Part shown: positions 12,316 through 55,925 of the stretch, piece by piece | How positions within the stretch are numbered: the stretch's first letter is position 1 | Layout of the letters: every line of letters starts with the position of its first letter | Assembly: GCA_016699245.1 (NCBI GenBank) | Contig: CP064968.1 | Coordinates: 768,317-832,316 of the forward strand | DNA: 64,000 bases | Reading direction: 5' to 3' | From: Candidatus Kaiserbacteria bacterium | GTDB taxonomy: Bacteria > Patescibacteriota > Minisyncoccia > Phycocordibacterales > UBA918 | The notes under the pieces: generated by a model | What the model was told of the DNA's origin: nothing | Seen by the model: the letters and a program-made list of their open reading frames with translations, nothing else | Databases searched by the model: none | Program-made: the position numbers and the translations under genes

Positions 12316-12993
12316 CTATTCTTTGAGATAAGAATCAACCAACATTTTCTGCCAAAACTTCATTTTGAGTAGTAGTTCTTTACTCCTCCTGACCTCGATG
12401 CGAATACACCCCTTATATAGCGGGCGCTTTTTAATTCCGCGACCACCTGGCTTATAGATAGTTTTTTTGAACTGGTCTTTATGTATATTAAGTTTATTTT
12501 TCCACCACTCTTCACAATTTTCGTGTGCGTACAATTTATGTATGAAAAGACGAAAATGCAAATCAGAGTGTTTAATTTCAATAAATCTTTCTAACCACAA
12601 AATCATTACTTGAATCATGTCATCGTCTGAGTTTATAAAACTCCATTGATTGACACGTTTTGCTCCCTCAGCCCAATATAGAGAAATGCCACAATGAAAA
12701 AATGTATCGTGTTTGTATTGTTGAAACACTTTTTGTGCTTCTTCAAGAAAAACTTGTTCACGAGCAAGACGTCTTTTTCTTAATTCGCTTGCTGCGTTAA
12801 TTCGTCCCCGCGTTATGTTTGAATCTTTGCGATGTTTAAGCACCTTCCTTTCATCCTCAGTAAGTGGTAAGTCTTTGAGCCAAAGCGACAATGAACTCTT
12901 TGCAACATTAACTTCTTTTAAAATTTCATTATATGAGCAACCTTTTCTGCGAAGTTGTATAGCTCGATCTTTCTCTTGAACTAATGTTTTCAT
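12316..12993 (-). CDS. HTH-domain protein with a LAGLIDADG-like motif (paralog 3 of 3); ends 16 bp upstream of tRNA-Arg
   Basis: HTH (LRRKGCSYNEILKEVNVAKSSLSLWL); motif FFHCGISLYWAEGAKR; homologous to the ORFs at 3806..4546 and 11157..11819. Confidence 0.6.
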   Translation of the reverse strand: MKTLVQEKDRAIQLRRKGCSYNEILKEVNVAKSSLSLWLKDLPLTEDERKVLKHRKDSNITRGRINAASELRKRRLAREQVFLEEAQKVFQQYKHDTFFHCGISLYWAEGAKRVNQWSFINSDDDMIQVMILWLERFIEIKHSDLHFRLFIHKLYAHENCEEWWKNKLNIHKDQFKKTIYKPGGRGIKKRPLYKGCIRIEVRRSKELLLKMKFWQKMLVDSYLKE

Positions 12994-25949: not shown

Positions 25950-26122
25950 ATACAATATATAGGTATAGGGAGGGAAGTGTCGCACAATATAGTGGATAAG
26001 CCCGCGTTAGGGCAGGGGTTGCGCACTTTGTCAAACTGTGGTAGAGTGGTGACAACCTTCGCAGGTTACTAACAACGCGCCACGGAACAACATCTACGTT
26101 CCATGACGCATTTTTAAACACT

Positions 26123-26389
26123 ATGCTTACAAAACGAAAGAAAGAAAACGCGATTAAGGAAGTTCGCCGACATGATCTCGACACTGGTTCACCACAAGCA
26201 CAGGTGGCAATTCTCACGAAGTCAATTGAAGAACTCTCGAAGCATCTTAAGAAGAATTTGAAGGATTTCCACTCACGTCGTGGACTCCTCCAGATGGTTG
26301 CCGATCGCCGCACACATCTTAAGTACCTCGAGAAGAAAGATGAAAAGGCATACAAGGCCCTCATCAAGAAACTCTCACTCAAGAAGTAA
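26123..26389 (+). CDS. rpsO: 30S ribosomal protein S15
   Basis: 88 aa; HSRRGLLQMV..RRTHLKYL motifs typical of S15. Confidence 0.9.
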   Translation: MLTKRKKENAIKEVRRHDLDTGSPQAQVAILTKSIEELSKHLKKNLKDFHSRRGLLQMVADRRTHLKYLEKKDEKAYKALIKKLSLKK

Positions 26390-35271: not shown

Positions 35272-35650
35272 CTGTTCTTTACGGAGTACTTTGTACCCAG
35301 AACGAGAATCGTGAAAGAAATATGTTATAAGCGATTTTTATGGACTCTCCACCTACGCAACCACTACGGTAATTATCTGAAACAAAAAGAGCGAACTTGG
35401 AAAGGCGCTCCATGTAGTACCCACAAGAGGTACGGTTACATGATAGCGGAGTAGGGAGGAGGGTCAACCTTGCAAAAAGGTCTTTTCCACAGTTTGACTC
35501 AAAGTGCTTTTCTGACGCTCTATATAGGGGTATTTAAGGTATTGCGGTATCTTTTCTTTGTGTTCTAATATTCTAGATGTTTTCAGTATCCCCAAAATGG
35601 GTACGGGGACACAGCATGTTATAGTTGATGCCACATTTACTTTTTTATAT

Positions 35651-38600: not shown

Positions 38601-38686
38601 CTTTCCTTCGCGACATCAGAAGTGAACTCCTTGAAAGCAAAAACCCCGCAGAATCTGGCTTCGAACGTACTATTTATCTGGATTAG
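35651..38686 (+). CDS. UvrD/PcrA-type DNA helicase carrying an in-frame intein
   Basis: Walker A motif AGAGSGKTRV; helicase motif III (VGDVDQ / SIYSWRGA) interrupted by a 367-aa insertion; the start is probably the Met at 35651. Confidence 0.85.
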   Translation: MDHLHGLNDAQRNAVVTTEGPLLVLAGAGSGKTRVITHRIINLILQGVPPERILAVTFTNKAAKEMRERVMNLIHTHQGGARATESGVPLVTTFHALGVRMLREHHEVFGLRKQFVIYDRSDSTSAIKKAMERAGQDPKQFEPRKILSIISRAKGDAVTQTDFSGSARTYPERVAADVWIHYEAILKEDHALDFDDLLAKTLSMLKSHPPILDEYRKRFTYVHIDEYQDTNRVQFEIARLIVGDRANLCVVGDVDQCLMEGTEVTMADKTKCPVEKIKKGDSVLSCYGSGDFRPALVVRARALVPKDELVRIETVSGKVLISTKDHIHFASYVLGITPQTYITYLMWKGGVGWRLGTTQIYTKGQKKSVVGLIQRSNHEHADATWVVSTHHSIQEARVHEYILSLTYQIPTVPFIPRRGLSTHGYVHDGDALKQIFSSVDTEKSARKLLSDYHLSLSFPHHRPQSSKSVRKNINVTLCGDRRGKTPMHRISMVGSDSETKKLLMSHGFSVRPAKKNSTGWRFETAHASFAHIEALVTQLQSIIPQAYVTMHARFGIQDENLIQKNSLLFTPASSVKAGMALFGSNGKYEIVKEVSLLKSSSRVFDIDIEHTHNYIANGIVTHNSIYSWRGADIKNILQFERHFPNAKIIMLEENYRSTQTIITASNDVIEKNVNRPLKKVFTKNHEGELISLYAAMGGQEEAEYVALTAKDLIKNGVFPSEIAILFRTNFQSRALEEAFINYDVPYQMLGTKFFERREVKDVLSFLRFACNPDSNADLVRIINTPPRGIGKVTLLKIVEGKRAELPGKTSEKVDAFYRMIDDIATYAKEHPVHETLAFIMKHTGMEAEYKTGGEEGLERLENVRELVTLGTKYQEYGPEEAIEHLLEDSALGSDQDEMKEKEEFDAVRLMTIHSSKGLEFPYIFITGLEEGLFPHERLSDEGIDEEEERRLFYVALTRAKKKVFLSYAHIRTIFGTQRVNAPSSFLRDIRSELLESKNPAESGFERTIYLD
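36419..37519 (+). mobile_element. Intein (367 aa) inserted in helicase motif III of the UvrD/PcrA gene
   Basis: Begins with Cys (CLMEG), ends with ..VTHN and is followed by Ser+1 (SIYSWRGA); the flanks restore the canonical DQSIYxxRGA motif. Confidence 0.75.
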
Positions 38687-43569: not shown

Positions 43570-45846
43570 ATGAATACCATCCAACAAAAAAATAAATTCT
43601 TGCAGGGCGTGCTTGCCTTTATTTTCTTTGTGATTCTTTGTACCCCTGTTGCTATTTCATTTGAAAAGGACTCGGTGAAATCGGCCTCCGAAACAATTGG
43701 AGTCTCGGAATTTTCTTCAATTAAAATTGCTATCAGCCCCACCATAGCATACGCAGCAGATAAGGGTAAAAACGATGCTTCAGGTTCGGAATGGGTCCAG
43801 AAAGTGGTGATGGTTCTTGGTAATTTACTCCTTAGTATTGGTGCTTTCTTTGCATGGGTCACCGGCAACTTCCTTGATAAGTCACTCAAAGAACTCGTCT
43901 TTGGAATGGGTGATTTAATAAATAAAGGTGGAATAGGAATTGCTATTGATACCGCATGGGGTATTGTCCGTGATTTGTGTAACCTTGCATTTATATTTGG
44001 ATTTATTTTCCTCGGTATTCGTACTATCATTGACCCCGATAATTCTTCAGTGAAGCGTACACTTTCTCAAATTATCATTGGTGCATTCCTCATCAACTTC
44101 AGCCTCTATATGGCGAAGTTCATCATTGATTTTTCAAACTTTACTGCGTACTCCATTTACAACGCAATGGTAACAGGCGGAAGTTCCATCTCCATGATTA
44201 TGTTTGACCAGCTGGGAATCACCACATTTTATTCAACGAAAGGAATAAATACAGCCCAGTTTGCTCAAGCGACCGGGGATGGAATGATTGCGTTTTACAT
44301 CATGGGAATGATTCTTCTCCTCGTGGCTTCATTTATTTTTCTTGCTTCTACGCTACTCCTTGTTTCTCGATTCGTGCTCCTGGTATTCCTTATGATTGGT
44401 TCGCCCATACTTTTTGCTGCAACGGTGTTTCCAAAGACAGAGGGGTACGCCAAATTGCTCTGGGGGAAACTTCTCTCATTATCGTTTTTTGCACCGCTCT
44501 ACCTCCTTCTCACACTCATATCAATGATGATGCTGAAAAGTTTTGTGGGAGTAATGAGTGGCGGACAACAATTTGCATCTACCTTCACTGACCCTAATGC
44601 CAAAATGGATGCCTTCGGTGTCGTCGTGAGCTTCGTGGTAGTGATATATTTCCTCATTCAGTCGTTACTCATTGCTAAACAGCTTGGTGTTGCAGGTGCG
44701 GATAGAGCGATTGGGCTTGGGAAAACACTGAAAGGAAATGCACAAAGCCTTGTAGGAAGGACGGCACTGGGCTGGGGTGGAAATAAAATCGCAAAATGGC
44801 AAGAGAACGCACGCTACAATGGGGGAGCAGGGAGTAAGGCTGCTGCTAGAGCTGCACGATGGACGGGTGTTGATGCTGCTGCGAATGCTGCTGCGAATGC
44901 GAAATGGGGAGGTTCGAAATCAAGTAAAGAAACTGCTAGCGAGAGTCAGGAAAGGGGTCGAAAACATGCCAGAGCACAGCAAGTATCAACCATCTCTACG
45001 GCAGTCTCTGAAAGCACACACCTCAATGCAGAGCGAGAGAGAATTGAGAAGGACACTTCATCCACCCAAGCACAAAAAGATGCTGCACGTACAGCGAGCG
45101 ATACCGCTAATATGCGCATGGAGAGTGCACTTGCCGGTGCGTCCTCAGAACAAACGCTTGAACTTCTTAGGAAGCATAAAAGCGGGCCTGAACGAGATGC
45201 CATCGTTGCCAACCTTTCTGCAAGCCAGTTTGACGGTCTCATGAAAGCCAAGCCAGAAGATCTTGATGATGGAAAGAAAGAAGAACTTCGCGGTCAACGT
45301 TCTACCGCAGTGCAAAATCGACTGATTGCTGCAGAGGATAGAAAGCGTAAAGCATCTGCAACGCCGAGTGCTCCCGCAGTAGCGGCAACTATTCAGGATG
45401 TTATTGGAAAAGCAGATGGAAAGGATCTTGATGCAATGGGCTTTGATACTGTGCTCAGTCACGCAGGACAACTCTCAACTAAGCAAGTCGATGACATGTC
45501 ACTTACACCAACAGCCAAAACCCGTCTCAAGGATGCACGGAAAGCAGCACTTATTGCTGAGTTCAATACAGGTGGTGCTGGAGCTGGCGCGGGAGATCTA
45601 TTTAAGAGAATCACCAGTGAGACAGAACGAGCCAAACTACCCGGAGAGATCCTTAAGGACAGCGGAGCAGCTCCGTATCTTACACAACAGGTTCTCACCA
45701 AGATGCTTGATAATGAAAGTGTTCTTGCTTCAGACCGGGCTGCTATTAAAACAAACGTTGAAACAGCATGGCTTACCAATCCTACAAAGGCACGACAATT
45801 TGCAGACTTCTTTGATGACACCCCCGCAGGTAAACAATATGTATAG
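43570..45846 (+). CDS. VirB6/TrbL-like polytopic membrane protein with a long low-complexity hydrophilic C-terminal tail
   Basis: Multiple TM helices in the first ~380 aa; Ala/Lys-rich tail; located next to PrgI-like and VirB4-like genes. Confidence 0.5.
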   Translation: MNTIQQKNKFLQGVLAFIFFVILCTPVAISFEKDSVKSASETIGVSEFSSIKIAISPTIAYAADKGKNDASGSEWVQKVVMVLGNLLLSIGAFFAWVTGNFLDKSLKELVFGMGDLINKGGIGIAIDTAWGIVRDLCNLAFIFGFIFLGIRTIIDPDNSSVKRTLSQIIIGAFLINFSLYMAKFIIDFSNFTAYSIYNAMVTGGSSISMIMFDQLGITTFYSTKGINTAQFAQATGDGMIAFYIMGMILLLVASFIFLASTLLLVSRFVLLVFLMIGSPILFAATVFPKTEGYAKLLWGKLLSLSFFAPLYLLLTLISMMMLKSFVGVMSGGQQFASTFTDPNAKMDAFGVVVSFVVVIYFLIQSLLIAKQLGVAGADRAIGLGKTLKGNAQSLVGRTALGWGGNKIAKWQENARYNGGAGSKAAARAARWTGVDAAANAAANAKWGGSKSSKETASESQERGRKHARAQQVSTISTAVSESTHLNAERERIEKDTSSTQAQKDAARTASDTANMRMESALAGASSEQTLELLRKHKSGPERDAIVANLSASQFDGLMKAKPEDLDDGKKEELRGQRSTAVQNRLIAAEDRKRKASATPSAPAVAATIQDVIGKADGKDLDAMGFDTVLSHAGQLSTKQVDDMSLTPTAKTRLKDARKAALIAEFNTGGAGAGAGDLFKRITSETERAKLPGEILKDSGAAPYLTQQVLTKMLDNESVLASDRAAIKTNVETAWLTNPTKARQFADFFDDTPAGKQYV

Positions 45847-45848
45847 GT

Positions 45849-46364
45849 ATGGAAAATGAATTACAACAAAAGCGCATCGGCGCGTATCGGGCAGCAAGTC
45901 AACTAATAAAGGATCAGTATGGGAATATGGTTTTGGGTGGTATTTTAAAATCCATCTCACAGAACAATTCGCTTTCAAAGGAAAAACATGGTGACTTTGT
46001 AAATCTGATTGGTGACTATATTCTTGGTATATATTCGAAGGATGTCGTTGAAGAAAAATTGGTATCTCAGATTGGCATTGCGAGCAACGAGACAAAAAGT
46101 GTCCTATCGGTGATTACAAATTTCCTTACGGGAAAGGAAAATGCTCCTGAGGTCCCCGAAGCACCAAAGGATTTCAAGGAGAAGCTTGAGTTGCGACCCG
46201 AGGACGCACAGGTATCAGAAAGCGATGGGAAAGGAAGTGTGCGCCCACTCACCCGTGACGAAGTCTTGCGTGCACTCGCGCCGGCACGCACTATGGCAGG
46301 GGATATCGCATCACTCGGGAAGCCATCAGATACTCCACGAGTACCACCTACAGCAAAACCGTAG
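45849..46364 (+). CDS. Hypothetical protein
   Basis: 171-aa ORF within the cluster. Confidence 0.35.
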   Translation: MENELQQKRIGAYRAASQLIKDQYGNMVLGGILKSISQNNSLSKEKHGDFVNLIGDYILGIYSKDVVEEKLVSQIGIASNETKSVLSVITNFLTGKENAPEVPEAPKDFKEKLELRPEDAQVSESDGKGSVRPLTRDEVLRALAPARTMAGDIASLGKPSDTPRVPPTAKP

Positions 46365-46391
46365 GTATCACGACTCTTGCAGGAAGGCTAT

Positions 46392-46420
46392 CCGCGCGCG
46401 CGCCTTCGGCGCGCGCGCGG
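46392..46420 (+). promoter_or_regulatory. Perfect 12-13 bp pure-GC hairpin with a UUCG tetraloop (ccgcgcgcgcgcc-ttcg-ggcgcgcgcgcgg)
   Basis: Very GC-rich stem in an AT-biased genome; a tacaat -10-like element lies 8 nt downstream, just before the PrgI-like gene. Confidence 0.5.
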
Positions 46421-46441
46421 ACTGCGGTACAATACACATAT

Positions 46442-46846
46442 ATGCGCTTTGAAGTTCCACAATTCATTGAGGTAGAAGATAAAATTATCGGCCCCCTTAC
46501 GTGGAAGCAATTTGTGTACCTTGCGGGGGGTGTAGGTATCATAGTGGTACTGTTCCTCAGTGTACCTTTTTTGATTTTCATACTTTTTGCACTTCCGCTG
46601 GGTGCGCTCTCGTTTGCACTTGCGTTTCATCGTGTCAACAATCGACCATTTTCGGTTTTTCTTGAATCTGCCGTAATGTTTTTTACCCGCAGTCGGTTGT
46701 ATCTGTGGCGTCGTGAAACTGCACAAACCATTGTCGTAAAAAAAGAAAAATCTGAGCAGACGACTTCTGATTCTGAATTACACTCAGTACGCACGCAATC
46801 AATTCACACGCTCTCACGCAAATTAGAGCATTCACTACCCGAATAA
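46442..46846 (+). CDS. PrgI/VirB3-like small membrane protein
   Basis: 134 aa, with two adjacent TM helices after a short N-terminus, as in PrgI-family proteins; located next to VirB4. Confidence 0.5.
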   Translation: MRFEVPQFIEVEDKIIGPLTWKQFVYLAGGVGIIVVLFLSVPFLIFILFALPLGALSFALAFHRVNNRPFSVFLESAVMFFTRSRLYLWRRETAQTIVVKKEKSEQTTSDSELHSVRTQSIHTLSRKLEHSLPE

Positions 46847-46849
46847 TAT

Positions 46850-47467
46850 ATGGCGACGCAATCCTCAACACAAAAATTTGTTCCTATTGCGGATATTCAT
46901 GATGACGTGGTTGTTCTCAAAGACGGCCAGCTTTGTATGGTACTTCTTGCGTCCTCCGTCAACTTTGCACTCAAGTCTCTCGAAGAACAGCAGGCAATTC
47001 TCTCTCAGTTCCAAGCATTTCTAAATTCGATGGACTTTTCCCTTCAAATATACATGCAATCCCGTCGTCTCGATATTCGACCCTACCTTGAAACACTCAG
47101 AGAGCGAGAACCGCTTCAGGATAATGATCTCATGCGCACGCAACTCCGTGAGTATATTGAATTCATCAGCACATTTACCTCACAGGTAGAAATCATGACA
47201 AAAAACTTCTTTGTAGTGGTACCCTATGCCCCACTCGGTGTAGAAGTGAAAGGAATATCAAATTTACTCAAACAAAAAGAAACAAAGGAATCGCGTGCTG
47301 ACAAATTTTTTGAGGACCGCACGCAGCTTGAGCAACGTGTATCGGTGGTAGAACAGGGACTTGCACGCATCGGCATTCGCACAGCACCTCTCGGTACCGA
47401 CGAACTCACTGAATTGTATTATCACATTTTCAACCCAGATGACTTATCAAAAGCACCAAAACCGTAA
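46850..47467 (+). CDS. VirB4 N-terminal domain-like protein (possibly a split or frameshifted N-terminus of the ATPase)
   Basis: Matches the N-terminal ~200 aa of Gram-positive VirB4/TrsE proteins (pattern ..KDG..C..L...inF.LKS.EEQ..I...F..FLNS.DF..QI); stop at 47467; the next ORF starts at 47470 in another frame. Confidence 0.4.
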   Translation: MATQSSTQKFVPIADIHDDVVVLKDGQLCMVLLASSVNFALKSLEEQQAILSQFQAFLNSMDFSLQIYMQSRRLDIRPYLETLREREPLQDNDLMRTQLREYIEFISTFTSQVEIMTKNFFVVVPYAPLGVEVKGISNLLKQKETKESRADKFFEDRTQLEQRVSVVEQGLARIGIRTAPLGTDELTELYYHIFNPDDLSKAPKP

Positions 47468-47469
47468 CT

Positions 47470-49266
47470 ATGCGACTCACTGACTTCATTCAACAAAAAA
47501 AGCAAGAGGCGGTGGAGATGGTGCCTACCAATGCACCCCTCACCACACCGGATATTGTGGCGCCTTCAGCTATTAATGTTACCCCTCGCACGATCAATAT
47601 CAGTGGCCGTGTTTCTCGTATTTTTTTTGCGGTTTCCTACCCACGGTATCTCAATGATGGTTGGCTTGAGCCAATTCTTAATCTCGAGCGAGAAATAGAC
47701 GTATCCATTGTCATTCACCCCATCGACACTGCAGAAACCCTTAAGAAATTTCAAAAAAAGGTTGCTGAGGTGCAGAGCCAAATCAATGAACGAGCAGATA
47801 AAGGAATGGTGCGTGACCCTCTCCTCGATGCAGCATACCGCAATCTTGAGGAACTTCGAGACAAACTCCAGCAAGCAGAGGAAAAGCTTTTTAATGTTGG
47901 GCTCTACATTGCACTCTATGGAGATACGGAAGCAACGCTCGATAAGATTGAGGCTGAGGTGAAAGGCTCACTTGATACACGCCTCATTTACATGAAGCCT
48001 GCTCTCTTCCAACAAGAAGACGGGTTTTTGAGCGTACTCCCTATTCTCTCTGATAAACTCCTTGTGCATAGCAAATTTAATTCTTCGCCGCTGTCGAGTT
48101 TCTTTCCCTTTATATCGTCTGATCTCACTTCAGATACGGGTATTTTGTATGGTATCAACCGTCAAAATGGCTCCCTTATTCTTTTTGACCGATTTAAACT
48201 TACCAACTACAACTCAGTCACTTTTGCTACCTCGGGAGCAGGGAAGTCATACACCACCAAACTCGAGATTCTCCGTTCACTCATGTTTGGCACCGAGGTC
48301 ATTGTCATAGACCCTGAACGTGAATATGAATATCTTGCTGAGGCCACGGGCGGAAAGTTCCTCAATATTTCGCTTTCTTCAAAACACCACATCAACCCAT
48401 TCGATTTACCAGTCCCGCAGTCTGACGAGGATCCAAAAGACCTGCTCCGTTCACATATTATTGAGTTGGTAGGACTATTTCGGCTCATGCTCGGGGGACT
48501 TACCCCAGAAGAAGACGCGGTGATTGATAATGCTCTCCATGAGGTATATGCACTTAAAGACATTACCGGTGCAGGCGACTACCGTGACCTCACTCCACCA
48601 CTCCTCACTGACTTTGAAATGGTGCTCGCGGGTATGGAAGGAAGTGAATCGCTTGTGCAGCGCCTTACCAAATACACATCGGGTACCTGGGCGGGCTTTA
48701 TGAATGAATCCACCAACGTGGATATCAATCAAAAATTCATTGTCTTTTCCTTACGCGACATGGAAGAGGAACTTAAGACCATTGCGATGTACATCGTCAC
48801 CAACCATATCTGGAGTGCCGTGCGGCGCGAACTCAAGAAGCGCCTTCTCGTGATTGATGAAGCGTGGTGGATGCTGAAGTCAGAAGACACTGCCGCATTC
48901 CTCCACAACATGGCTAAGCGTGGACGTAAATACTATCTAGGACTTGCGACAATTACTCAGGATGTGGATGACTTCCTCCGCTCACCGTATGGCGTACCGA
49001 TGATTACGAACTCCTCCATTCAACTGCTCATGAAGCAGTCCCCTACTGCTGTGGACACCTTGCAAAGTGTGTTCAATCTCACGAACGAGGAAAAACTGAT
49101 GCTTCTTGAGTCAAGTGTCGGGGAAGGGATTTTCTTTCTTGGGCTTAAACATGTTGCGATTAAAGTCCTCCCCTCATACACCGAAGACCAAATCATCACC
49201 TCAGACCCCTCGCAATTGTTACAAATAAGACGCGCTCGTGAAGAACTTGGAGGAGCACCTAAATAA
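47470..49266 (+). CDS. VirB4/TraC/TrsE-family type IV secretion ATPase (C-terminal 598 aa)
   Basis: Walker A motif FATSGAGKSY and Walker B motif LLVIDEAWWML. Confidence 0.8.
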   Translation: MRLTDFIQQKKQEAVEMVPTNAPLTTPDIVAPSAINVTPRTINISGRVSRIFFAVSYPRYLNDGWLEPILNLEREIDVSIVIHPIDTAETLKKFQKKVAEVQSQINERADKGMVRDPLLDAAYRNLEELRDKLQQAEEKLFNVGLYIALYGDTEATLDKIEAEVKGSLDTRLIYMKPALFQQEDGFLSVLPILSDKLLVHSKFNSSPLSSFFPFISSDLTSDTGILYGINRQNGSLILFDRFKLTNYNSVTFATSGAGKSYTTKLEILRSLMFGTEVIVIDPEREYEYLAEATGGKFLNISLSSKHHINPFDLPVPQSDEDPKDLLRSHIIELVGLFRLMLGGLTPEEDAVIDNALHEVYALKDITGAGDYRDLTPPLLTDFEMVLAGMEGSESLVQRLTKYTSGTWAGFMNESTNVDINQKFIVFSLRDMEEELKTIAMYIVTNHIWSAVRRELKKRLLVIDEAWWMLKSEDTAAFLHNMAKRGRKYYLGLATITQDVDDFLRSPYGVPMITNSSIQLLMKQSPTAVDTLQSVFNLTNEEKLMLLESSVGEGIFFLGLKHVAIKVLPSYTEDQIITSDPSQLLQIRRAREELGGAPK

Positions 49267-49267
49267 T

Positions 49268-49978
49268 ATGCCAGAAGAATCACGCGATACAAGACGAGGT
49301 ATTCAAAACGTACAAGGACGAGTGTCCCGCATTCCGAGCCGTGAGACGGTGGGCGAACGCCATCTACGGGGTGGGAAATGGAGTCCTGAAGCAGCGAATG
49401 ATGCTGGGGCCATTCAGGCTGCTAATGACGACGCATATGCTGCAGAAAATGCCATGATGATTGCTGAAGCACAGGAATCCGCAAACCAATCACGAATACA
49501 GCAAGCCATCAAAGAAAAAGGGAAAAAAATGCTTTTAAAAAAGCTTGCGAGCGAAAAAACACTTTTGGCACGCACATCCATTCGTTCAACGCTCTGGTAT
49601 GCACTCATTGCGTACGTCCTACAAATATTTTTTGCTGTTGGTGCAATGCTGGGTTTTGGAGGTCACGCTGTGGTGCTGTATCTCAGACACGAAACTATTG
49701 TTGGACGGGTTTTTGGTGTTTTAATTGATTTTCAAAATATACTTCCCTTTGAAGGTCTTGGGTATGTATTCTGGGGACTCGGTATTGTGCTTTCACTTGC
49801 ATTACTTATTGGTTATAATTTATTTTTCTTTTTTATCGGTATTTCCGTATTACGGAGTTCCACAATGTTTCTCATCATGGTGGTGTGCTTCGCCTTCAAT
49901 ATTATCCCATTCATCAATATTCTTCCCTGGCTCTTGTTGTGGGTTATCTACATGTCTTTGTTCAGTTCACGTGAATGA
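49268..49978 (+). CDS. Polytopic membrane protein
   Basis: 4 TM helices; the start is the Met just after the VirB4 stop. Confidence 0.4.
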   Translation: MPEESRDTRRGIQNVQGRVSRIPSRETVGERHLRGGKWSPEAANDAGAIQAANDDAYAAENAMMIAEAQESANQSRIQQAIKEKGKKMLLKKLASEKTLLARTSIRSTLWYALIAYVLQIFFAVGAMLGFGGHAVVLYLRHETIVGRVFGVLIDFQNILPFEGLGYVFWGLGIVLSLALLIGYNLFFFFIGISVLRSSTMFLIMVVCFAFNIIPFINILPWLLLWVIYMSLFSSRE

Positions 49979-51009
49979 AATTAATTATGCACATGATACA
50001 CTATAAGAGTATGCACCACATAGACTCATATCGTTCAGTCACAATCACTGCTTGTTTGTTTATTCTGGGTTGTATTTTCAGCACAGCATTGCCGTCGAGC
50101 GCTTTTGCTCAGGTGCCTTCTTTTATAGGGAGCAGTATTTACCTTGAATCAAAGCCCCAGTATCCTGAGCCACAGAGTACCGCAACCGTATCGTTAAATG
50201 ACTATAGTGTGAATACATTTGGAGCAACTATCAACTGGTTTGTAAACGGAGTGGAGCAGGTAGGAGCAAAAAACAATCGTTCCATTACCGTTCCTACTCG
50301 TGAGATTGGGTCACAAGAAGTTGTGAAAGCAGTTCTTTCATATACAAACGCACCCTCACAGACAGCAACACTCACGCTTACGCCCATAGTCATCGATATC
50401 ATCCTAGAGGCAGATACCTACGTTCCTTCATTTTATAAAGGACGTGCACTTCCAAGTCAGGAATCCAGAGTTCGTGCTATTGCTCTCGTCCATGATGCAA
50501 AGGGTGGCATAAAAGGTAATTATGTATATAAATGGTCTGCGGGGAGCACTGTTCTTCTCGGTGGGCCAGTAAAGGGTAAGTTTATACTTGAATACGCCAT
50601 GCCTCGATATAGTGATAATGAACTTACGGTGGAAGTATTAAATACGGAAGGCACTACCCTTGGAAAAAAGACTATCCTTTTGAACCCCGAAGAAACTCAA
50701 TTGCATTTCTATGAATATAGTTCACTCCGTGGACTTTCTGAACGCACCGTTGCGAATCCCTTTTCTCTCATTAGTGAGGAGACCACCCTCTATGGTGAGC
50801 CCTATTTCATGAATACCCGCATAAATACAGCAGAAGCGGACTTCACATGGACCCTCGACAACAATGCAGTAGTTCCTAACCAAGATGCTCCCAACGCAAT
50901 AACACTGAGACGTACTGGTATCACAGGCACCTCTGAAGTCTCCTTGCGTGTGGTTACCAAAAATCGAATTCCACAATATGTGATGCAAAAGCTTCAACTT
51001 ATATTTTAA
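49975..51009 (+). CDS. Secreted protein with a signal peptide
   Basis: Signal peptide ending ..SSAFAQ. Confidence 0.4.
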   Translation: MKLIMHMIHYKSMHHIDSYRSVTITACLFILGCIFSTALPSSAFAQVPSFIGSSIYLESKPQYPEPQSTATVSLNDYSVNTFGATINWFVNGVEQVGAKNNRSITVPTREIGSQEVVKAVLSYTNAPSQTATLTLTPIVIDIILEADTYVPSFYKGRALPSQESRVRAIALVHDAKGGIKGNYVYKWSAGSTVLLGGPVKGKFILEYAMPRYSDNELTVEVLNTEGTTLGKKTILLNPEETQLHFYEYSSLRGLSERTVANPFSLISEETTLYGEPYFMNTRINTAEADFTWTLDNNAVVPNQDAPNAITLRRTGITGTSEVSLRVVTKNRIPQYVMQKLQLIF

Positions 51010-51011
51010 TT

Positions 51012-51788
51012 ATGAATACAACTCTCTATCGTGTCTCACCAGTAGGTATTTTCTTCCTTATCCTTAGTATGTTCTGTATCTTCTTTGCAACACCTCTGTT
51101 TGTAACAGGTGTGAGTGCTCAAGCACCAACTACACAACAAGACTGTTGGAATGCCCTCGGTACTTGGAACGGTACAACATGTACTAATATTCCTGCCACA
51201 ACAGGTGGAGGGACTGGTGGAGCAGTAGGTGGGGGGGGTGGGGGTGGAGTTAAATACACTCCACTTGTGGGTATCCCCGGTATAAGTGGCACACCGTCAC
51301 TCCCTGATTATATTAATAAGATATATTTGCTTACTATTGCAGTCGGTGTGTTTATTGCAATTCTCCGTATTGCATACGCGGGTGTGAAATACAGTATGTC
51401 GGGTGTCGTGACCGATAAAGCGAGTGCCAAGAGTGATATCAAGGGTGTTCTTATAGGGCTTGCTATTCTCCTTTTGCCAGCACTTGTTCTCAATACCATT
51501 AACCCCAATTTACTTCGTCTTGATTTTCTTAATGGTCTTCCAAAGTTGGATACATCTGCTGGTTCAATAAAGAATCCCGGTGGAGCGGGTGGTGCAAGTG
51601 GGCCAGGTTTTGCGAATAGCTCCGGGAGTGCAGGGGCTAAGGCTCCAACCTCACAACAAGATTGTTGGGATGCTCTCGGTACTTGGAATGGCACTGCATG
51701 TACTAATATTCCTACCGTATCAGGTAATGCGGGTGCAGGGAATAGCGTCAACTGTGCTGCAACCCCCCAATTGTGTCTTGACCCCTAA
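51012..51788 (+). CDS. VirB2/TrbC-like pilin candidate with a Gly-rich tract and duplicated Cys motifs
   Basis: Signal peptide, then a core of two hydrophobic helices (LTIAVGVFIAIL..VLIGLAILLLPALV) resembling TrbC/VirB2; QQDCW.ALGTWNGT.CTNIP occurs both before and after the core. Confidence 0.4.
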   Translation: MNTTLYRVSPVGIFFLILSMFCIFFATPLFVTGVSAQAPTTQQDCWNALGTWNGTTCTNIPATTGGGTGGAVGGGGGGGVKYTPLVGIPGISGTPSLPDYINKIYLLTIAVGVFIAILRIAYAGVKYSMSGVVTDKASAKSDIKGVLIGLAILLLPALVLNTINPNLLRLDFLNGLPKLDTSAGSIKNPGGAGGASGPGFANSSGSAGAKAPTSQQDCWDALGTWNGTACTNIPTVSGNAGAGNSVNCAATPQLCLDP

Positions 51789-51797
51789 CATTATCTT

Positions 51798-52943
51798 ATG
51801 AAAAATATATTTATTATAATCGGCGTACTCGTTTTTGTTTTAGTGTTAGGAATATGGGCATATCTATTTACATTTGGTACCCCCCAAAGTGGCGCTGAAA
51901 TATTCACGCGATTTAGTGGGGGGAGTGATGCAGAAACATTCATACCTCCTGAAAACACGAGCATTGATGTGAGTGATGTGGACACTCTTGGTGCGCCTCA
52001 AGCACTCAAGCAACTTACCACACGTCCCGTAGCAGGAGCAGGATTTACCAGTGATGGTATACGGTATGTAGAGCAGGGAACAGGGCATGTATACGACATC
52101 AATCTTCAGACTGGAGCTGAAACACTTCAGAGTGGCACGACAATCCCTGGTGCGCGCGATGCTGTATTTTCTGATGATGGCTTATACGCGGCAATTACCA
52201 TGCTTGACGAAGGAGATGAGAGGACGTTGGTAGGTAAACTGACATCAGGCACACAATTTTCTGGAGTGACACTCCCACTTGGCGCAAAAAATATTGCTTT
52301 TGTTAATGCATCGGGGACACTGGAATACACGATAAACGAAGGGTATAGTACTCTCGGGTACTCGTACAATATGATGAAAGAGGCGGATACAATGGTGTTT
52401 AACTTGCCACTCAAAGATGTGGGAGTATTGTGGGGAAACCCTACCTATGTATTTACAACACCTTCCACCAAACAAATGGGCTACCTCTATCAAGTAATTA
52501 AAAACGATCTCCACTATGTAACAAAGGGAGGTCGTGGCCTCGCAAGTTTTGCTACTCATGATGGTGTCATGGTAACGCGTTCTACTGATACACTCGTAAA
52601 GTCTTTTCTTATAACTTTAGATGGCGAGCGAGTAACACAGCCACTTCCATACATTCCTGAAAAATGCGTGTCAGGTGAAACCTTCCTCTACTGTGCAATC
52701 CCAAAAGAGACCCTCAACACCCAAGCGTTTCCTGATGACTGGTACATGGGTGACGTTTCATTTGATGATTCGCTTTGGATAGTCGACACCAAAAATCAAA
52801 AAGCGGAGGTGCTTGTAGACTTTACTGGTGCAAGTGGCCGCGCGATAGATGTACTTAAAATTGGTGCAGACAAGGAAGGGAAGCGTGTATACCTCATCAA
52901 TAAAAATGACAACACGCTCTGGCTCTTTGATACCACTCTCTAA
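51798..52943 (+). CDS. Exported protein with an N-terminal TM anchor
   Basis: 381 aa; N-terminal hydrophobic segment. Confidence 0.4.
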   Translation: MKNIFIIIGVLVFVLVLGIWAYLFTFGTPQSGAEIFTRFSGGSDAETFIPPENTSIDVSDVDTLGAPQALKQLTTRPVAGAGFTSDGIRYVEQGTGHVYDINLQTGAETLQSGTTIPGARDAVFSDDGLYAAITMLDEGDERTLVGKLTSGTQFSGVTLPLGAKNIAFVNASGTLEYTINEGYSTLGYSYNMMKEADTMVFNLPLKDVGVLWGNPTYVFTTPSTKQMGYLYQVIKNDLHYVTKGGRGLASFATHDGVMVTRSTDTLVKSFLITLDGERVTQPLPYIPEKCVSGETFLYCAIPKETLNTQAFPDDWYMGDVSFDDSLWIVDTKNQKAEVLVDFTGASGRAIDVLKIGADKEGKRVYLINKNDNTLWLFDTTL

Positions 52944-52963
52944 ATTCCGCACACAGACAGATA

Positions 52964-52986
52964 AAAACAGCCTACGGCTGTTTTTG
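52964..52986. terminator. Bidirectional terminator hairpin (aaaaacagcc-tac-ggctgttttt)
   Basis: Lies between the convergent 3' ends of the T4SS-like cluster and yidC. Confidence 0.65.
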
Positions 52987-53003
52987 TTTGTCTCCACACG
53001 TGT

Positions 53004-53753
53004 TTATTTTGTTGTATGAGGAAGCTTTAATCCCTTGTGGCGCACCACATATTCCTGCCCAATCGATACAATATTGCTGATAGTGAAGTAAAGTGCAATC
53101 GCTGCGGAAATGGTGTATGCAGCTATAATGATAATTACCGGCATGACGTACTTCATTTGAATGTGCATACTGCGTGCGAAATCATCTTTGAAGTTTGGCT
53201 CTGCTTTGGGGTCCTTCGGTTTTTGTGGAGGAAGGGTAAGATGGGTAAGAATGTATTGCGTGACTCCGGCAAGGAGAGCGAGCGGAAGACTCCGTGCGGT
53301 AATGTCCATAAACCCAAGGAAAATCATATTCACTGTCTCGGGGGTAGGAATAAATGAATAGAGAAGAACGGTATTGATATCAGGAAGCTTAACACCACCT
53401 CCAGAAGATACAGAAAGGTATAAGGCAATAACGATAGGGATCTGAAGGAAGAGAATGAAAATACTGGCAAATGGATTTACCTTTGCTTCGCGGAAAAGTT
53501 CCATAGTCTTTGTCGCCTGCATCTCACGCTGGTCTTTAAAATCCTCTTTTATTTTAGCGAGTTTTGGCTCAAGCTCGCGCATTGCGAGTTGTGTACGAGC
53601 TGCTTTGAGTGAAATGGGGAGGAGTATCAATTTTACCAATATCACCGTACAGATAATCGCAAGCCCCACATCACCATCACGCACGACATCAATAAAAAAA
53701 ACGAGGCTATTATAGACAGGGTCAAAGAAAAATGTATGCCAGATTGAACTCAT
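53004..53753 (-). CDS. yidC: Membrane protein insertase YidC/Oxa1 (short form)
   Basis: 249 aa with conserved YidC core helices; follows rnpA. Confidence 0.8.
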   Translation of the reverse strand: MSSIWHTFFFDPVYNSLVFFIDVVRDGDVGLAIICTVILVKLILLPISLKAARTQLAMRELEPKLAKIKEDFKDQREMQATKTMELFREAKVNPFASIFILFLQIPIVIALYLSVSSGGGVKLPDINTVLLYSFIPTPETVNMIFLGFMDITARSLPLALLAGVTQYILTHLTLPPQKPKDPKAEPNFKDDFARSMHIQMKYVMPVIIIIAAYTISAAIALYFTISNIVSIGQEYVVRHKGLKLPHTTK

Positions 53754-54121
53754 AGAAGTGTACTCATATTACTAGTATTTTGTATGGATGTACTCAGTCG
53801 TGCGTATACTTCGGATTTAAGAGAAGTATATGGTGTATTCTCTACACCTTTTTTGGTCAAAAAAATAAATACCCCACGCACCTCCGTCTCAGTGCGGTAG
53901 TGTCTCACAATATCATATATTCGTCGCCGAATCTTGTTGCGTACAACTGCATGATTGGATATTTTTTTAGATACCACTACTGATACATGCAGTGCCGGGG
54001 AAGGAGCATATACCAAGGTAAAGAGGGGGGAGTGATAACGCTTCCCCACAGAAAAAAAACGATTGAATTCTAATCTGCTCAATCGTTCTTTTTTAGGAAG
54101 CATATGCTTAGTATAGCGCAC
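53750..54121 (-). CDS. rnpA: RNase P protein component
   Basis: KISNHAVVRNKIRRRI motif; rpmH-rnpA-yidC synteny. Confidence 0.85.
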   Translation of the reverse strand: MRYTKHMLPKKERLSRLEFNRFFSVGKRYHSPLFTLVYAPSPALHVSVVVSKKISNHAVVRNKIRRRIYDIVRHYRTETEVRGVFIFLTKKGVENTPYTSLKSEVYARLSTSIQNTSNMSTLL

Positions 54122-54175
54122 TATATCGAGGCATAGTATAAAACGTCACGTAAAAAGGCACGCAGGGGCCTTTTC

Positions 54176-54313
54176 TTAAACGCTTAGCTTTGCTCGTCCT
54201 TTACGGCGTCGTGCGGCGAGTACCGCGCTCCCTGACGCACTTGCTGAACGCACGAGAAACCCGTGGGTTGTTGCTCGTTTTCGCTTTTTTGGTTGATAGG
54301 TTCGTTTTGGCAT
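54176..54313 (-). CDS. rpmH: 50S ribosomal protein L34 (45 aa; too short to appear in the ORF track)
   Basis: Manual translation of the minus strand gives [45 protein letters not shown], a clear L34. Confidence 0.85.
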
Positions 54314-54515
54314 ATATAAAATGTTGTGGCTCACACTCTACACCACAAACCATTTTTAATCAATACGCATGTAATATGACAAAGGGACTCATCTTTGACA
54401 AATAGGTTATACACGACTCTCCCCATCCTATACACAGCCCCTATACACAATGAGTACTATATATCCCATTTATTGAATATTGTTTACACTTTTCTACAGA
54501 CACGTATAATACTTC
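54314..54515. promoter_or_regulatory. rpmH-dnaA divergent intergenic region with DnaA-box-like repeats (cctatacaca x2)
   Basis: TATACACA variants of the DnaA box; AT-rich. Confidence 0.4.
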
Positions 54516-55925
54516 TTGTCGTTTAGCATTTCCTCTATGCAATCTATGAGTTCCATTTCAAACATCTCAACAAATATAATACACACTGAGCAGATAGATA
54601 TAAAAAAGCTCTGGGATGATGCGCTCGTAAGTATAGAACTCTCCATTACTTCAGCAAATTTTAAAACGTGGTTTCGCGATACACAGATTGTATCGGTAGA
54701 GGATGGCACCGTGACACTGGGGGTGCCGAGTGTCTTTGTGCGCGATTGGGTTGCAGACAAATTTCAAACACTTATTTTAAAGACGCTTCGCGACCTTACC
54801 CCCCACGCGCGAAGTATCGAATACGCTGTAGTCCAACGCACCGACCGTAAACAAGAGTCGTCGCGTAAACAGACGGTAAACGCTGCCCTTCCACTTGAAG
54901 AGTATTACATAAACAAAAGCGACAACCTCAATCCAAAGTATGTTTTTGATAACTTTGTCGTAGGTCCCTTTAATGAACTTGCGCATGCAGCAGCACGTAC
55001 TGTGGTTAATAAGCCTGGCATCGCATACAATCCACTTTTTATATACGGAAAGACAGGGCATGGAAAGACGCACCTCATACAGGCTGTGGGGAACCAATTA
55101 AAACGTGTGGGGAAGAAAGTGTTTTATGTAACCAGTGAGCGTTTTACTGTCGATTATATGAATGCTCTCCAAAATGGTACTGCAAACGGATTTAAGGATA
55201 AATACCGCCAATACGATGTGCTTGTGATGGATGATGTACAATTTTTGATGAATAAAGAAAAGACACAGGAGGAACTCTTCCATCTTTTTAACTCTATGCA
55301 CGACAACAACAAACAAATTGTGTTTTCGAGTGATGTACACCCCGCAATCATGTCGAATATGGAAGATCGTCTCAGGTCGCGTTTTGCACAGGGAATGATT
55401 GTTGATATACCTGAACCTGATTTTGAATCTCGTGGTGCTATTTTACGCTCTAAAGCAGCACAAAATAGCCTTACCTTGAGTGATGATGTGGTGGAACACC
55501 TCTCACATACTATTGATGGCAATGTGCGTGAAATTGAAGGTGCACTCAATACTATTTTGTGTCAATCACAACTCTTAGGGCGCACGTTAAATCTTGACGA
55601 AGTAAAGGTGCTTATTAAAAACAGCACACGTCCGCGCAAATCACTTGCGGTCTCTGATGTAGTGGATAAAGTTGCACGGTATTTTGATATTGACCCCGCA
55701 AGTATCTACGAAAAAACACGTCGTAAAGAAGTGGTGAAGCCGCGGCAACTTATTATGTATATCCTAAGGGAGGATTTTCAAGTATCATATCCTGCAATTG
55801 GACAAAAACTGGGTGGTAGGGATCACACGACTGTGATTCACTCCTGTGAAAAAATTAAGCATGAGGTGAAGGAAAGTGCTGAACTCGAAGAGGAGATTTC
55901 ACAAATCCGTCTCCTTTTGAAATAA
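54516..55925 (+). CDS. dnaA: Chromosomal replication initiator DnaA
   Basis: AAA+ Walker A motif GKTGHGKTHL; C-terminal DnaA DNA-binding domain. Confidence 0.9.
   Translation: MSFSISSMQSMSSISNISTNIIHTEQIDIKKLWDDALVSIELSITSANFKTWFRDTQIVSVEDGTVTLGVPSVFVRDWVADKFQTLILKTLRDLTPHARSIEYAVVQRTDRKQESSRKQTVNAALPLEEYYINKSDNLNPKYVFDNFVVGPFNELAHAAARTVVNKPGIAYNPLFIYGKTGHGKTHLIQAVGNQLKRVGKKVFYVTSERFTVDYMNALQNGTANGFKDKYRQYDVLVMDDVQFLMNKEKTQEELFHLFNSMHDNNKQIVFSSDVHPAIMSNMEDRLRSRFAQGMIVDIPEPDFESRGAILRSKAAQNSLTLSDDVVEHLSHTIDGNVREIEGALNTILCQSQLLGRTLNLDEVKVLIKNSTRPRKSLAVSDVVDKVARYFDIDPASIYEKTRRKEVVKPRQLIMYILREDFQVSYPAIGQKLGGRDHTTVIHSCEKIKHEVKESAELEEEISQIRLLLK

What the first reader, a model, noticed from the sequence alone, without database searches (positions are those of the whole stretch)
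51012..51788. Pilin-like protein with an internal G8 homopolymer tract and a duplicated Cys motif flanking the pilin core
The predicted VirB2/TrbC-like core (two hydrophobic helices) is flanked on both sides by near-identical 23-aa motifs (PTTQQDCWNALGTWNGTTCTNIP before it, PTSQQDCWDALGTWNGTACTNIP after it), each with two Cys. This suggests disulfide-stabilised surface-exposed flanks or a duplicated recognition or processing site. The gene also contains ggggggggtggggg (G8 at 51231-51238, then G5) encoding a poly-Gly linker. A G8 run is a classic slipped-strand mispairing site that could phase-vary the distal part of this surface structure.
Basis: partly seen in the sequence, partly recalled or inferred. 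Interest (0 to 1): 0.55.

Follow-up and report, generated by a model that had tools for sequence, protein, structure and literature searches.

The report
CPR secretion-system pilin with duplicated ends

Summary
ORF 51012-51788 (258 aa) holds two in-frame copies of a 30-aa two-Cys module (90 nt, 82% identical) on either side of a two-helix hydrophobic core, and a G8 run at 51231-51238.

The gene is the single VirB2-like pilin (Pfam PF18895) of the origin-proximal type IV secretion operon already described for Patescibacteria. The record is a Candidatus Kaiserbacteria MAG.

The positional orthologue (VirB4 97% identical) lacks both modules and the poly-Gly linker. The modules are therefore two lineage-specific insertions, and both look to be under purifying selection (dN/dS about 0.1-0.25).

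Across the family, C-terminal tails are Cys-rich with even Cys counts (116 of 121). Tails are replaced as cassettes, even between strains 99.6% identical in the flanking DNA. An N-terminal copy is rare.

The G8 codes part of a Gly7 linker. Such a run is expected about 14% of the time from local codon usage, and none of 29 related pilin ORFs (26 distinct proteins) has a G/C run of 7 or more. A slip would abolish the whole pilin core, not just its distal part. No read or strain data exist, so phase variation is unsupported but not excluded.

Verdict: a new variant of a known kind, of moderate interest.

The parts
51012..51788 (+). VirB2-like T4SS pilin gene (258 aa; NCBI QQR64722.1, hypothetical protein IPH92_04135, Candidatus Kaiserbacteria bacterium)
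   Evidence: ORF; exact database identity; PF18895 E=3.5e-5, 24.2 bits against a cut-off of 26.6; 19 of 21 aligned relatives hit PF18895
51012..51119 (+). Signal peptide, res 1-36, predicted cleavage after VSA (inferred from the -3/-1 rule)
   Evidence: Hydrophobic segment 4-36; helix 4-31 in the AF2 model; in relatives the conserved core starts directly after the equivalent segment
51117..51206 (+). N-terminal copy of the 30-aa two-Cys, Trp-containing module (AQAPTTQQDCWNALGTWNGTTCTNIPATTG)
   Evidence: Direct repeat D1; codon comparison; AF2 gives a short helix plus beta-hairpin at pLDDT about 62-65
51207..51248 (+). Gly-rich linker (GGTGGAVGGGGGGG) joining the N-terminal module to the core; it is part of the N-terminal insertion
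   Evidence: pLDDT below 50
51231..51238 (+). G8 homopolymer (GGT GGG GGG GGT), followed by T and G5 at 51240-51244
   Evidence: slips by 1 or 2 bases give 79-91-aa truncated products
51111..51252 (+). N-terminal insertion relative to the positional orthologue (about 141 nt / 47 aa: new cleavage site, module, linker)
   Evidence: MAFFT DNA alignment A2; blastn break points between window and L001
51249..51536 (+). Conserved pilin core (res 80-175): YTPLVGIPG motif, helix 97-129, K-rich loop, helix 133/136-163, TINP motif
   Evidence: Conserved stretch 78-195 in 150 listed relatives; alignment A1; AF2 core model pLDDT 71, helices at pLDDT 74-89; hydropathy
51602..51727 (+). C-terminal insertion relative to the orthologue (about 123-126 nt: linker plus module)
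51636..51725 (+). C-terminal copy of the module (AKAPTSQQDCWDALGTWNGTACTNIPTVSG)
51744..51785 (+). Ancestral short tail SVNCAATPQLCLDP (a C-x6-C loop), shared with the orthologues P0002, P0005, P0009 and P0011
43570..49266 (+). Upstream T4SS genes: VirB6/TrbL-like 43570-45846, 171-aa ORF 45849-46364, PrgI/VirB3-like 46442-46846, TrsD/TraC-like 46850-47467, VirB4-like ATPase 47470-49266
   Evidence: Pfam; NCBIfam TrsD; same order in all related loci long enough to show it
49238..51009 (+). Two conserved operon genes of unknown function directly upstream of the pilin (246 aa and 344 aa)
   Evidence: No Pfam or NCBIfam hit; the 344-aa gene sits upstream of the pilin in every related locus that extends that far, and the 246-aa gene was detected in about half of them
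51798..52943 (+). Conserved 381-aa operon gene directly downstream of the pilin, with an N-terminal TM helix
   Evidence: Syntenic in related loci; no family hit

Best explanation
The gene is the single-copy VirB2-like pilin of the chromosomal, origin-proximal type IV secretion system typical of Patescibacteria. After Sec export and signal-peptide cleavage (inferred), the protein sits with two hydrophobic helices joined by a short Lys-rich loop, so both termini face outward. In this family the outward-facing C-terminal tail is a fast-evolving, disulfide-bonded module that is exchanged by recombination while the core and the rest of the machine stay conserved. This lineage acquired a 30-aa Trp-containing two-Cys loop module within its short ancestral tail. 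A second copy, with a poly-Gly linker and a new cleavage site, was pasted between the signal peptide and the core. Each mature subunit therefore displays the same module on flexible Gly-rich linkers at both exposed ends. The most likely role (inferred) is doubling the density of a surface ligand or adhesion epitope used in contact with the host cell. The G8 run is a neutral consequence of encoding Gly7 with GGG codons, not a selected switch.
For: Identity and context:
- PF18895 hit, and 19 of 21 relatives hit it.
- 6973 representative clusters share only the core, query residues 78-195.
- The operon order VirB6, PrgI, TrsD-like, VirB4, two unknown genes, pilin, 381-aa gene lies next to yidC, rnpA, rpmH and dnaA. 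This is as described for Patescibacteria (PMC12102498). The pilins are essential in Southlakia (PMC10633639).

Insertions:
- The orthologous locus L001 is collinear at 81-85% nt identity over 8 kb. The only large gaps are at 51111-51252 and 51602-51727.

Selection:
- Between the two copies dS is 0.51-0.55 and dN is 0.06-0.13. The orthologue core has dS 0.79. This fits a duplication after the lineage split, with both copies kept.

Topology:
- Three hydrophobic segments, and a loop carrying K136, K140 and K144.
- The AF2 core model is a helical hairpin at pLDDT 74-89.

Family behaviour:
- Tail Cys count is even in 116 of 121 members.
- A C-x3-5-G-x1-2-W-x1-6-C loop occurs in 10 of 120 other tails, against 0.65 expected from shuffles.
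- In 207 kb of related loci that pattern occurs only in pilin ORFs.
- The tail alone is replaced between strains that are 99.6-99.7% identical in 4.4 kb and 4.0 kb of flanking DNA, and between P0002 and P0003.

G8:
- P = 0.137 given Gly7.
- L006 and L007 encode the same Gly7 with synonymous, run-free codons.
- No G/C run of 7 or more occurs in 29 related pilin ORFs.
Against: - The PF18895 score is 2.4 bits below Pfam's gathering cut-off.
- No solved pilin was recovered by fold or profile search, so the VirB2-like fold rests on a generic helical hairpin.
- Pilus formation, disulfide formation and surface exposure are all inferred. No disulfide-forming enzyme is seen in the window.
- The module has no demonstrable homologue: pairwise scores against other tails are only about 1-2 sd above shuffles.
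- The dN/dS estimate rests on 30 codons.
- The gene is known from one MAG only.
- G8 is the longest G/C run in 64 kb and lies in the 5' third of a surface-structure gene, the classic position for a contingency tract.
Confidence: 0.6

Rival explanations
1. The G8 tract is a functional slipped-strand contingency switch. Gain or loss of one G turns the pilin off, leaving an 79-91-aa secreted fragment made of signal peptide, N-terminal module and linker. This would create ON/OFF heterogeneity of the T4SS surface structure.
For: G8 is the only G/C run of 8 or more in the window. It lies 28% into a surface-protein gene. Three of the seven Gly codons are GGG, against 18% GGG usage in the window. Slips truncate the product cleanly.
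Against: A run of 8 or more is expected in 13.7% of Gly7 stretches. Relatives with the same Gly7 avoid long runs, and none of 29 related pilin ORFs has a run of 7 or more, so there is no family-wide selection for tracts. Eight is at the low end of tracts that vary at useful rates in known systems (general knowledge of Neisseria and Campylobacter). This is the only pilin gene found in the window, in a system reported essential in a related epibiont (PMC10633639). Exact look-ups of the G6, G7, G9 and G10 products and of the one-Gly-shorter and one-Gly-longer in-frame variants found nothing, but only one record of the gene exists. No paper in the library links Patescibacteria with phase variation.
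Confidence: 0.08
2. The two modules are recognition sites for a maturation enzyme that trims or joins both ends, analogous to C-terminal trimming and head-to-tail cyclisation of TrbC and VirB2. Alternatively, they pair with each other, within one subunit or between neighbouring subunits, to clamp the ends together.
For: Near-identical sequences sit symmetrically on both sides of the core, and both copies are conserved at the protein level. Cyclisation of VirB2 and TrbC is an established precedent (general knowledge).
Against: The positional orthologue in an otherwise 81-97% identical operon has neither module, and nearly all other family members examined lack them. A dedicated processing system would therefore have to be lineage-specific, and no extra gene is present in the collinear operon. 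Homotypic pairing is untested.
Confidence: 0.12
3. The protein does not polymerise into a pilus. It is a two-helix membrane anchor that displays Cys-rich ectodomains on the cell surface next to the T4SS channel, acting as an adhesin or receptor.
For: Family members carry tails up to 276 aa and N-terminal extensions up to about 250 aa, which may be hard to pack in a VirB2-type filament. Monoderm T4SSs normally lack pili (PMC12102498, PMC12857230). No structural match to solved pilins was found.
Against: Homology to the T4SS_pilin family and a weak hit to a mycoplasma ICE pilin-like protein. In known conjugative pili both pilin termini lie at the outer surface, so decorations are tolerated (general knowledge).
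Confidence: 0.2

Closest known systems
VirB2-like pilins of the Patescibacteria/CPR type IV secretion system (Pfam PF18895 T4SS_pilin; Quinonero-Coronel et al. 2025, PMC12102498; Wang et al. 2023, PMC10633639)
   Same: Conserved two-helix core and long signal peptide. Position beside VirB4, PrgI and VirB6 with no relaxase nearby. Operon next to dnaA. Monoderm-type machinery.
   Different: A single-copy pilin rather than the arrays described for Saccharimonadia and Microgenomatia. It carries the same two-Cys module at both the N- and C-terminal ends. Among 170 representatives, only this protein and P0167 show head-to-tail similarity. The papers read do not describe Cys-rich tails or tail cassette exchange.
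VirB2/TrbC/TraA conjugative pilins of diderm T4SSs (Pfam PF04956 and relatives)
   Same: A small hydrophobic helical hairpin made with a long signal peptide, both termini on the outer side, encoded within the T4SS operon.
   Different: No PF04956 hit in the query or in 20 relatives at E <= 0.01. No match to solved pilus structures. Classical pilins lack Cys-rich extensions, and some are cyclised. The host here is a monoderm.
C-terminal disulfide-bonded loop (D-region) of type IV pilins such as Pseudomonas PilA and Neisseria PilE
   Same: A hypervariable disulfide loop at the exposed end of a pilin that mediates adhesion and varies by recombination (general knowledge). This is analogous to the tail cassettes seen here.
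   Different: An unrelated protein family and assembly machine (prepilin peptidase and T4P). Here the loop is also duplicated at the N-terminus, which in T4P pilins is buried in the filament core.
Poly-G contingency loci of Neisseria, Haemophilus and Campylobacter surface genes
   Same: A G homopolymer in the 5' part of a surface-structure gene. A one-base slip truncates the product.
   Different: The tract is only 8 bases. It codes a selected poly-Gly linker, is not recurrent in homologues, and no length variation has been documented.
Mbov_0395 family pilin-like conjugal transfer protein of mycoplasma ICEs (NCBIfam NF045849)
   Same: Weak similarity over the two-helix core, res 99-158. It is a pilin-like protein of a monoderm T4SS.
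   Different: E = 0.001 and 18.7 bits against a cut-off of 40, so this is not a member.

Membership tests
Patescibacteria T4SS VirB2-like pilin (PF18895 T4SS_pilin) | Significant match to the family profile | tested here: met
   E = 3.5e-5 over 65 of 71 profile positions, although 24.2 bits is below the 26.6-bit gathering score. 19 of 21 aligned relatives match, with a best E of 8e-8. phmmer links the query to relatives that carry precomputed PF18895 hits at E of about 1e-34 to 1e-20.
Patescibacteria T4SS VirB2-like pilin (PF18895 T4SS_pilin) | Encoded near virB4 together with VirB3/PrgI-, VirB6- and TrsD-like genes | tested here: met
   The same gene order is seen in related loci.
Patescibacteria T4SS VirB2-like pilin (PF18895 T4SS_pilin) | Signal peptide followed by two hydrophobic helices joined by a short basic loop | tested here: met
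   Hydropathy segments 4-36, 100-127 and 141-165, with loop lysines. AF2 helices at 97-129 and 133-163.
Patescibacteria T4SS VirB2-like pilin (PF18895 T4SS_pilin) | Assembles into an extracellular filament | not testable with these tools
   Not shown experimentally for any member in the papers read (PMC12857230 calls it a possibility).
Classical VirB2/TrbC pilins (PF04956) | Profile match, or fold match to solved T- or F-type pilins | tested here: not met
   No PF04956 hit at E <= 0.01 in 21 sequences. Profile against PDB sequences gave 0 hits at E <= 10. Foldseek against PDB gave no hit below E = 1 for either model. A helical hairpin is too generic for this test to exclude distant relatedness.
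Phase-variable (simple-sequence contingency) gene | Tract length varies between reads, cells or strains | not testable with these tools
   Only one record of the gene exists. Exact look-ups of six slipped or in-frame variants returned nothing. No reads are available.
Phase-variable (simple-sequence contingency) gene | Tract longer or more frequent than composition and coding explain, and recurrent in homologues | tested here: not met
   P = 0.137 given Gly7 and local codon usage. The Gly7 of L006 and L007 is encoded without long runs. 0 of 29 related pilin ORFs have a G/C run of 7 or more.
Disulfide-bonded extracytoplasmic module | Paired cysteines located outside the membrane | tested here: inconclusive
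   Two Cys per module, both outside the helices by topology. Family tails have even Cys counts in 116 of 121 members. Bond formation itself and a Dsb/VKOR-type oxidase were not shown (none found in the window).
Pfam PF14882 INT_rpt (Integrase repeat unit) | Profile match of the module | tested here: not met
   18.9 bits for the whole protein and 14.1 bits for the isolated N copy, against a cut-off of 26.5. The C copy gives no hit. Treated as chance.

The most novel reading that the evidence does not exclude
The exposed termini of the single-copy T4SS pilin are the host-recognition determinant of these epibiotic CPR bacteria and form a diversification hot-spot. Cys-loop cassettes are swapped between conspecific strains by recombination. 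In this lineage one cassette was copy-pasted to the N-terminus to give a bivalent subunit. The G8 tract in the new linker could additionally give ON/OFF heterogeneity.
Probability: 0.25. Interest if true: 0.6.

Novelty: new variant of a known kind. Interest (0 to 1): 0.38.

Why it matters
The Patescibacteria T4SS is one of the few systems shown to be essential for the epibiotic lifestyle, yet its function and what it contacts are unknown. The machine here is highly conserved (VirB4 80-97% identical across the related loci). In contrast, the outward-facing ends of its pilin are replaced wholesale, even between strains that are 99.6% identical. In one lineage the module is duplicated onto both ends. 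This points to the pilin termini as the part that meets a variable partner, such as a host surface, a phage or an antagonist. It gives concrete, short, swappable sequences to test for host specificity. It also cautions against reading every G run in a Gly-rich linker as a phase-variation switch.

Tried and rejected
- Word-indexed database searches with the module alone. A 60-aa concatenation of both copies and a natural 60-aa C-terminal segment found nothing. The last did not even recover the source protein, so these negatives fail their positive control and say nothing about the module's uniqueness.
- A degenerate DNA pattern for DCW[ND]ALGTWNGT in viral contigs gave 0 hits.
- The INT_rpt (PF14882) sub-threshold hit was rejected, because only one copy matches and only weakly.
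- Homology of the module to other tails (P0049, P0010, P0029). Local alignment scores of 28-31 compare with shuffles of 23-27 +/- 4-5, which is not significant. Only the loop pattern is enriched.
- A second pilin in the window. The weak profile hit at 12363-12590 lies in a soluble, charged 225-aa ORF with no pilin features, so it was rejected.
- Exact look-up of frameshifted and in-frame tract variants found nothing, but there is only one record. The look-up of encoding contigs has no entry for the gene.
- The integrase at 25021-26382 was checked for INT_rpt-like repeats and none were seen.
- Provenance: the locus-tag style suggested a long-read activated-sludge MAG study (PMC8012365), but I could not link the record to that study. 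This matters only because homopolymer lengths are the weakest part of Nanopore-based assemblies.

Full report
**1. What is in the sequence**

The ORF 51012-51788 (+) encodes 258 aa. Its parts, in order, are:
- a long hydrophobic N-terminal segment, res 4-36, ending in VSA|QA;
- a 30-aa segment AQAPTTQQDCWNALGTWNGTTCTNIPATTG;
- a Gly-rich linker ending in Gly7;
- a conserved core beginning KYTPLVGIPG, with two hydrophobic helices (about 97-129 and 136-163);
- a second Gly/Ser-rich linker;
- a second copy of the 30-aa segment, AKAPTSQQDCWDALGTWNGTACTNIPTVSG;
- a short tail, SVNCAATPQLCLDP.

The repeat finder reports the two copies as a 90-nt direct repeat that is 82% identical with 519-nt spacing. 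They are in the same frame. tblastn of either copy against the window finds only the other copy (E = 5e-16); the next best hit has E = 0.13. The G8 lies at 51231-51238, followed by T and G5. It reads GGT GGG GGG GGT GGG GGT GGA.

**2. What the gene is**

- Pfam gives PF18895 (T4SS_pilin) over res 97-161 at E = 3.5e-5. That is 24.2 bits, just under the 26.6-bit gathering score. 19 of 21 aligned relatives hit the same family.
- An exhaustive HMMER scan finds 6973 representative clusters at E <= 1e-3. In the 150 best hits, the best-matching stretch always lies within query residues 56-252 and always spans the core (about 78-195), never the N-terminal module.
- The exact protein is NCBI QQR64722.1, a hypothetical protein of a Candidatus Kaiserbacteria bacterium on a 1.05-Mb contig.
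- Upstream lie VirB6/TrbL-like (43570-45846), PrgI/VirB3-like (46442-46846), TrsD/TraC-like (46850-47467) and VirB4-like (47470-49266) genes, plus two conserved unknown genes. Downstream lie a conserved 381-aa gene, then yidC, rnpA, rpmH and dnaA.
- This is the arrangement described for the Patescibacteria T4SS: a monoderm-type machine plus VirB2-like pilins, often next to dnaA, with no relaxase (PMC12102498). Its pilin genes are essential for epibiotic growth in Southlakia epibionticum (PMC10633639; review PMC12857230).
- The operon order is the same in the 29 related loci fetched from genomes and metagenomes, as far as each locus extends, although the 246-aa gene was detected in only about half of them. 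VirB4 is 80-97% identical across them.
- No second pilin gene is present in the window.

**3. Fold and topology**

Hydropathy gives three segments: 4-36, 100-127 and 141-165. The short loop between the last two carries K136, K140 and K144. AlphaFold models give a helical hairpin: the core model has mean pLDDT 71, with the helices at 74-89. The full model has pLDDT 59, with disordered linkers and, for each module, a short helix plus a beta-hairpin at pLDDT about 62-70.

By the positive-inside rule, and by analogy with VirB2-type pilins (established knowledge), both termini face outward. This step is inferred. Fold and profile searches against solved structures returned nothing specific. The VirB2-like fold is therefore consistent with the data but not demonstrated.

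**4. The modules are lineage-specific insertions**

The positional orthologue P0002 (loci L001-L003) sits in an identical operon, with VirB4 97% and the 381-aa gene 90% identical. It is 170 aa long and goes straight from the signal peptide to EYTPLVGIPG, and from the Gly linker to SVDCSTNPDACMVGP.

At DNA level the window and L001 are collinear at 81-85% identity over 8 kb. The only large gaps fall at 51111-51252 and 51602-51727. The N-terminal insertion brings the new VSA|QA site, the module and the poly-Gly linker that holds the G8. The C-terminal insertion brings a linker plus the module into the ancestral short tail.

Between the two copies, 7 codons differ synonymously and 7 non-synonymously; within the central 23 codons only 3 differ non-synonymously. 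This gives dS = 0.51-0.55 and dN = 0.06-0.13. The orthologous cores differ by dS = 0.79 and dN = 0.04. On this small sample, the intragenic duplication post-dates the split from the P0002 lineage, and both copies have been kept by purifying selection.

Because the modules are absent from the orthologue and from nearly all other family members examined, they cannot be a general processing signal.

**5. Family context: variable, Cys-rich, exchangeable ends**

- In 121 family members where the core end could be located, the C-terminal tail (median 118 aa) has an even number of Cys in 116, and the core usually has none. This is what disulfide-bonded extracytoplasmic domains would show.
- A loop of the form C-x3-5-G-x1-2-W-x1-6-C, as in the query, occurs in 10 of 120 other tails, against 0.65 expected from composition-preserving shuffles. 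The pattern was defined after the fact and the sequences are related. In 207 kb of related loci it occurs only inside pilin ORFs.
- Pairwise similarity of the query module to any of these loops is not significant. I claim a recurrent loop type, not homology.
- Tails are mosaic. P0013 and P0018 have 121/121 identical signal peptide plus core but unrelated tails. P0025 and P0030 share a tail (74% identity) on 64%-identical cores, while P0023 and P0030 share the core (81%) but not the tail.
- At DNA level, L030 and L032 are 99.6% identical over 4430 nt upstream and 99.7% over 3987 nt downstream. The roughly 190-220 nt coding the tail are unrelated. The same holds for P0003 against P0002, the query's nearest relatives. 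The documented mode of variation in this gene is therefore cassette replacement.
- An extension between signal peptide and core is rare. The core starts at residue 20-49 in 92 of the 97 sequences where the start motif could be located, and at residue 60 or later in only 5 of 170. One such case is P0049/L016, with two tandem 4-Cys modules (DCNALDTHYWDPMCKTC...).
- Only the query (score 150) and P0167 (85, against 46 +/- 8 for shuffles) show similarity between the N-terminal and C-terminal extensions.

**6. The G8 tract**

- It is the only G/C run of 8 or more in the window. However, the run-length series extrapolates to about 0.5-1 such run per 64 kb.
- Given seven consecutive Gly codons and the window's codon usage (GGG 18%), a run of 8 or more appears in 13.7% of simulations.
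- Two related pilins (L006, L007) have the same Gly7 in their C-terminal linker, encoded by differing synonymous codons with no run longer than 6. None of 29 related pilin ORFs has a G/C run of 7 or more. Poly-Gly is what is conserved, not the homopolymer.
- A slip of one or two bases truncates the product at 79-91 aa, before the core. This would be an all-or-none switch of a single-copy pilin in a system reported essential elsewhere.
- Exact look-ups of the four frameshift products and two in-frame variants among about 15 billion proteins found nothing. Only one record of the gene exists, so no population evidence is available either way.
- I rate phase variation at about 8%.

**7. Most likely mechanism**

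Shown: pilin-family core, T4SS operon context, two lineage-specific in-frame insertions, conservation of both copies, and family-wide even-Cys, recombining tails.

Inferred: Sec export and cleavage after VSA; both ends outside; each module forming one disulfide-closed Trp-containing loop held on a flexible Gly-rich linker; the modules acting as the contact surface of the pilus or pilin towards a variable partner, with duplication doubling their density per subunit.

Rivals are a processing or clamping role for the paired modules (about 12%), a non-polymerising membrane-anchored adhesin (about 20%, and compatible with most of the above), and a G8 phase switch (about 8%).

**8. Novelty and verdict**

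The gene family, its operon and its location are already described. The two-ended duplication is a new architectural variant, seen in one MAG with a loose parallel in P0167. The family-level observations (even-Cys tails and strain-level tail cassette replacement in a single-copy pilin) are not mentioned in the papers I could read and may be the more useful result.

The phase-variation idea, which gave the finding much of its initial interest, is not supported. Overall this is a new variant of a known kind, with interest about 0.38.

Noticed in passing
L030:4431-4617 vs L032:4431-4652 (related Patescibacteria strains, Logan assemblies): Two strains are 99.6-99.7% identical over 4.4 kb upstream and 4.0 kb downstream, yet carry unrelated sequences for the pilin's Cys-rich C-terminal tail. 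This is a clean cassette replacement that ends at the start of the next gene. The same pattern holds for L034 against L001.
   Followed up: partly
Family-wide (P0001-P0170): The C-terminal tails of these T4SS pilins have an even Cys count in 116 of 121 members (2-14 Cys), while the core has none in most. The T4SS papers read do not mention this.
   Followed up: partly
L016:570-1583 and L017:1338-2099: A pilin with two tandem 4-Cys modules (DCNALDTHYWDPMCKTCITNESRQGVVCG) between signal peptide and core. It is another rare N-terminally extended member, and its first loop resembles the query module in pattern.
   Followed up: partly
C-termini of P0003, P0006, P0009, P0011, P0015, P0016 and window 51777-51785: Otherwise unrelated tails end in the same [ILVT]-D-P C-terminus (CLDP, CIDP, YIDP, YVDP, FVDP, YTDP). 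This could be a functional C-terminal signal or the edge of the recombining segment.
   Followed up: no
window 35558-38686 (+): A UvrD/PcrA-type helicase of 1042 aa is interrupted by an intein. Intein_splicing, Hint and PT-HINT hits fall at about res 285-654, between the helicase N- and C-terminal domains.
   Followed up: no
window 46850-47467 (+): The 205-aa gene just upstream of VirB4 matches TrsD/TraD and the N-terminal part of VirB4 models. This suggests a split VirB4 N-domain, as in monoderm T4SSs.
   Followed up: no
window 43570-55925: The whole T4SS operon ends about 1.6 kb from dnaA (54516-55925), with yidC, rnpA and rpmH in between. This matches the origin-proximal placement noted in PMC12102498.
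   Followed up: partly
P0004 (168 aa, 714-nt ENA contig): This is a variant of the orthologue P0002 whose tail switches to a GC-rich stretch and then to the +1 frame of the Gly-linker DNA (WWCGWCGWCGCRG). On so short a contig it is probably an assembly chimera, but it is formally a frameshifted tail allele.
   Followed up: no
tool behaviour: The word-indexed protein search did not return the source protein for 60-aa queries taken from it. Negative results for short or low-complexity queries from that tool should not be read as absence.
   Followed up: yes
window 47470-49266 / 49238-49978: The ORF after VirB4 is listed with a GTG start that overlaps VirB4 by 29 nt. The orthologue gene is called 237 aa, starting just after VirB4, so the true start is probably further downstream.
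   Followed up: no
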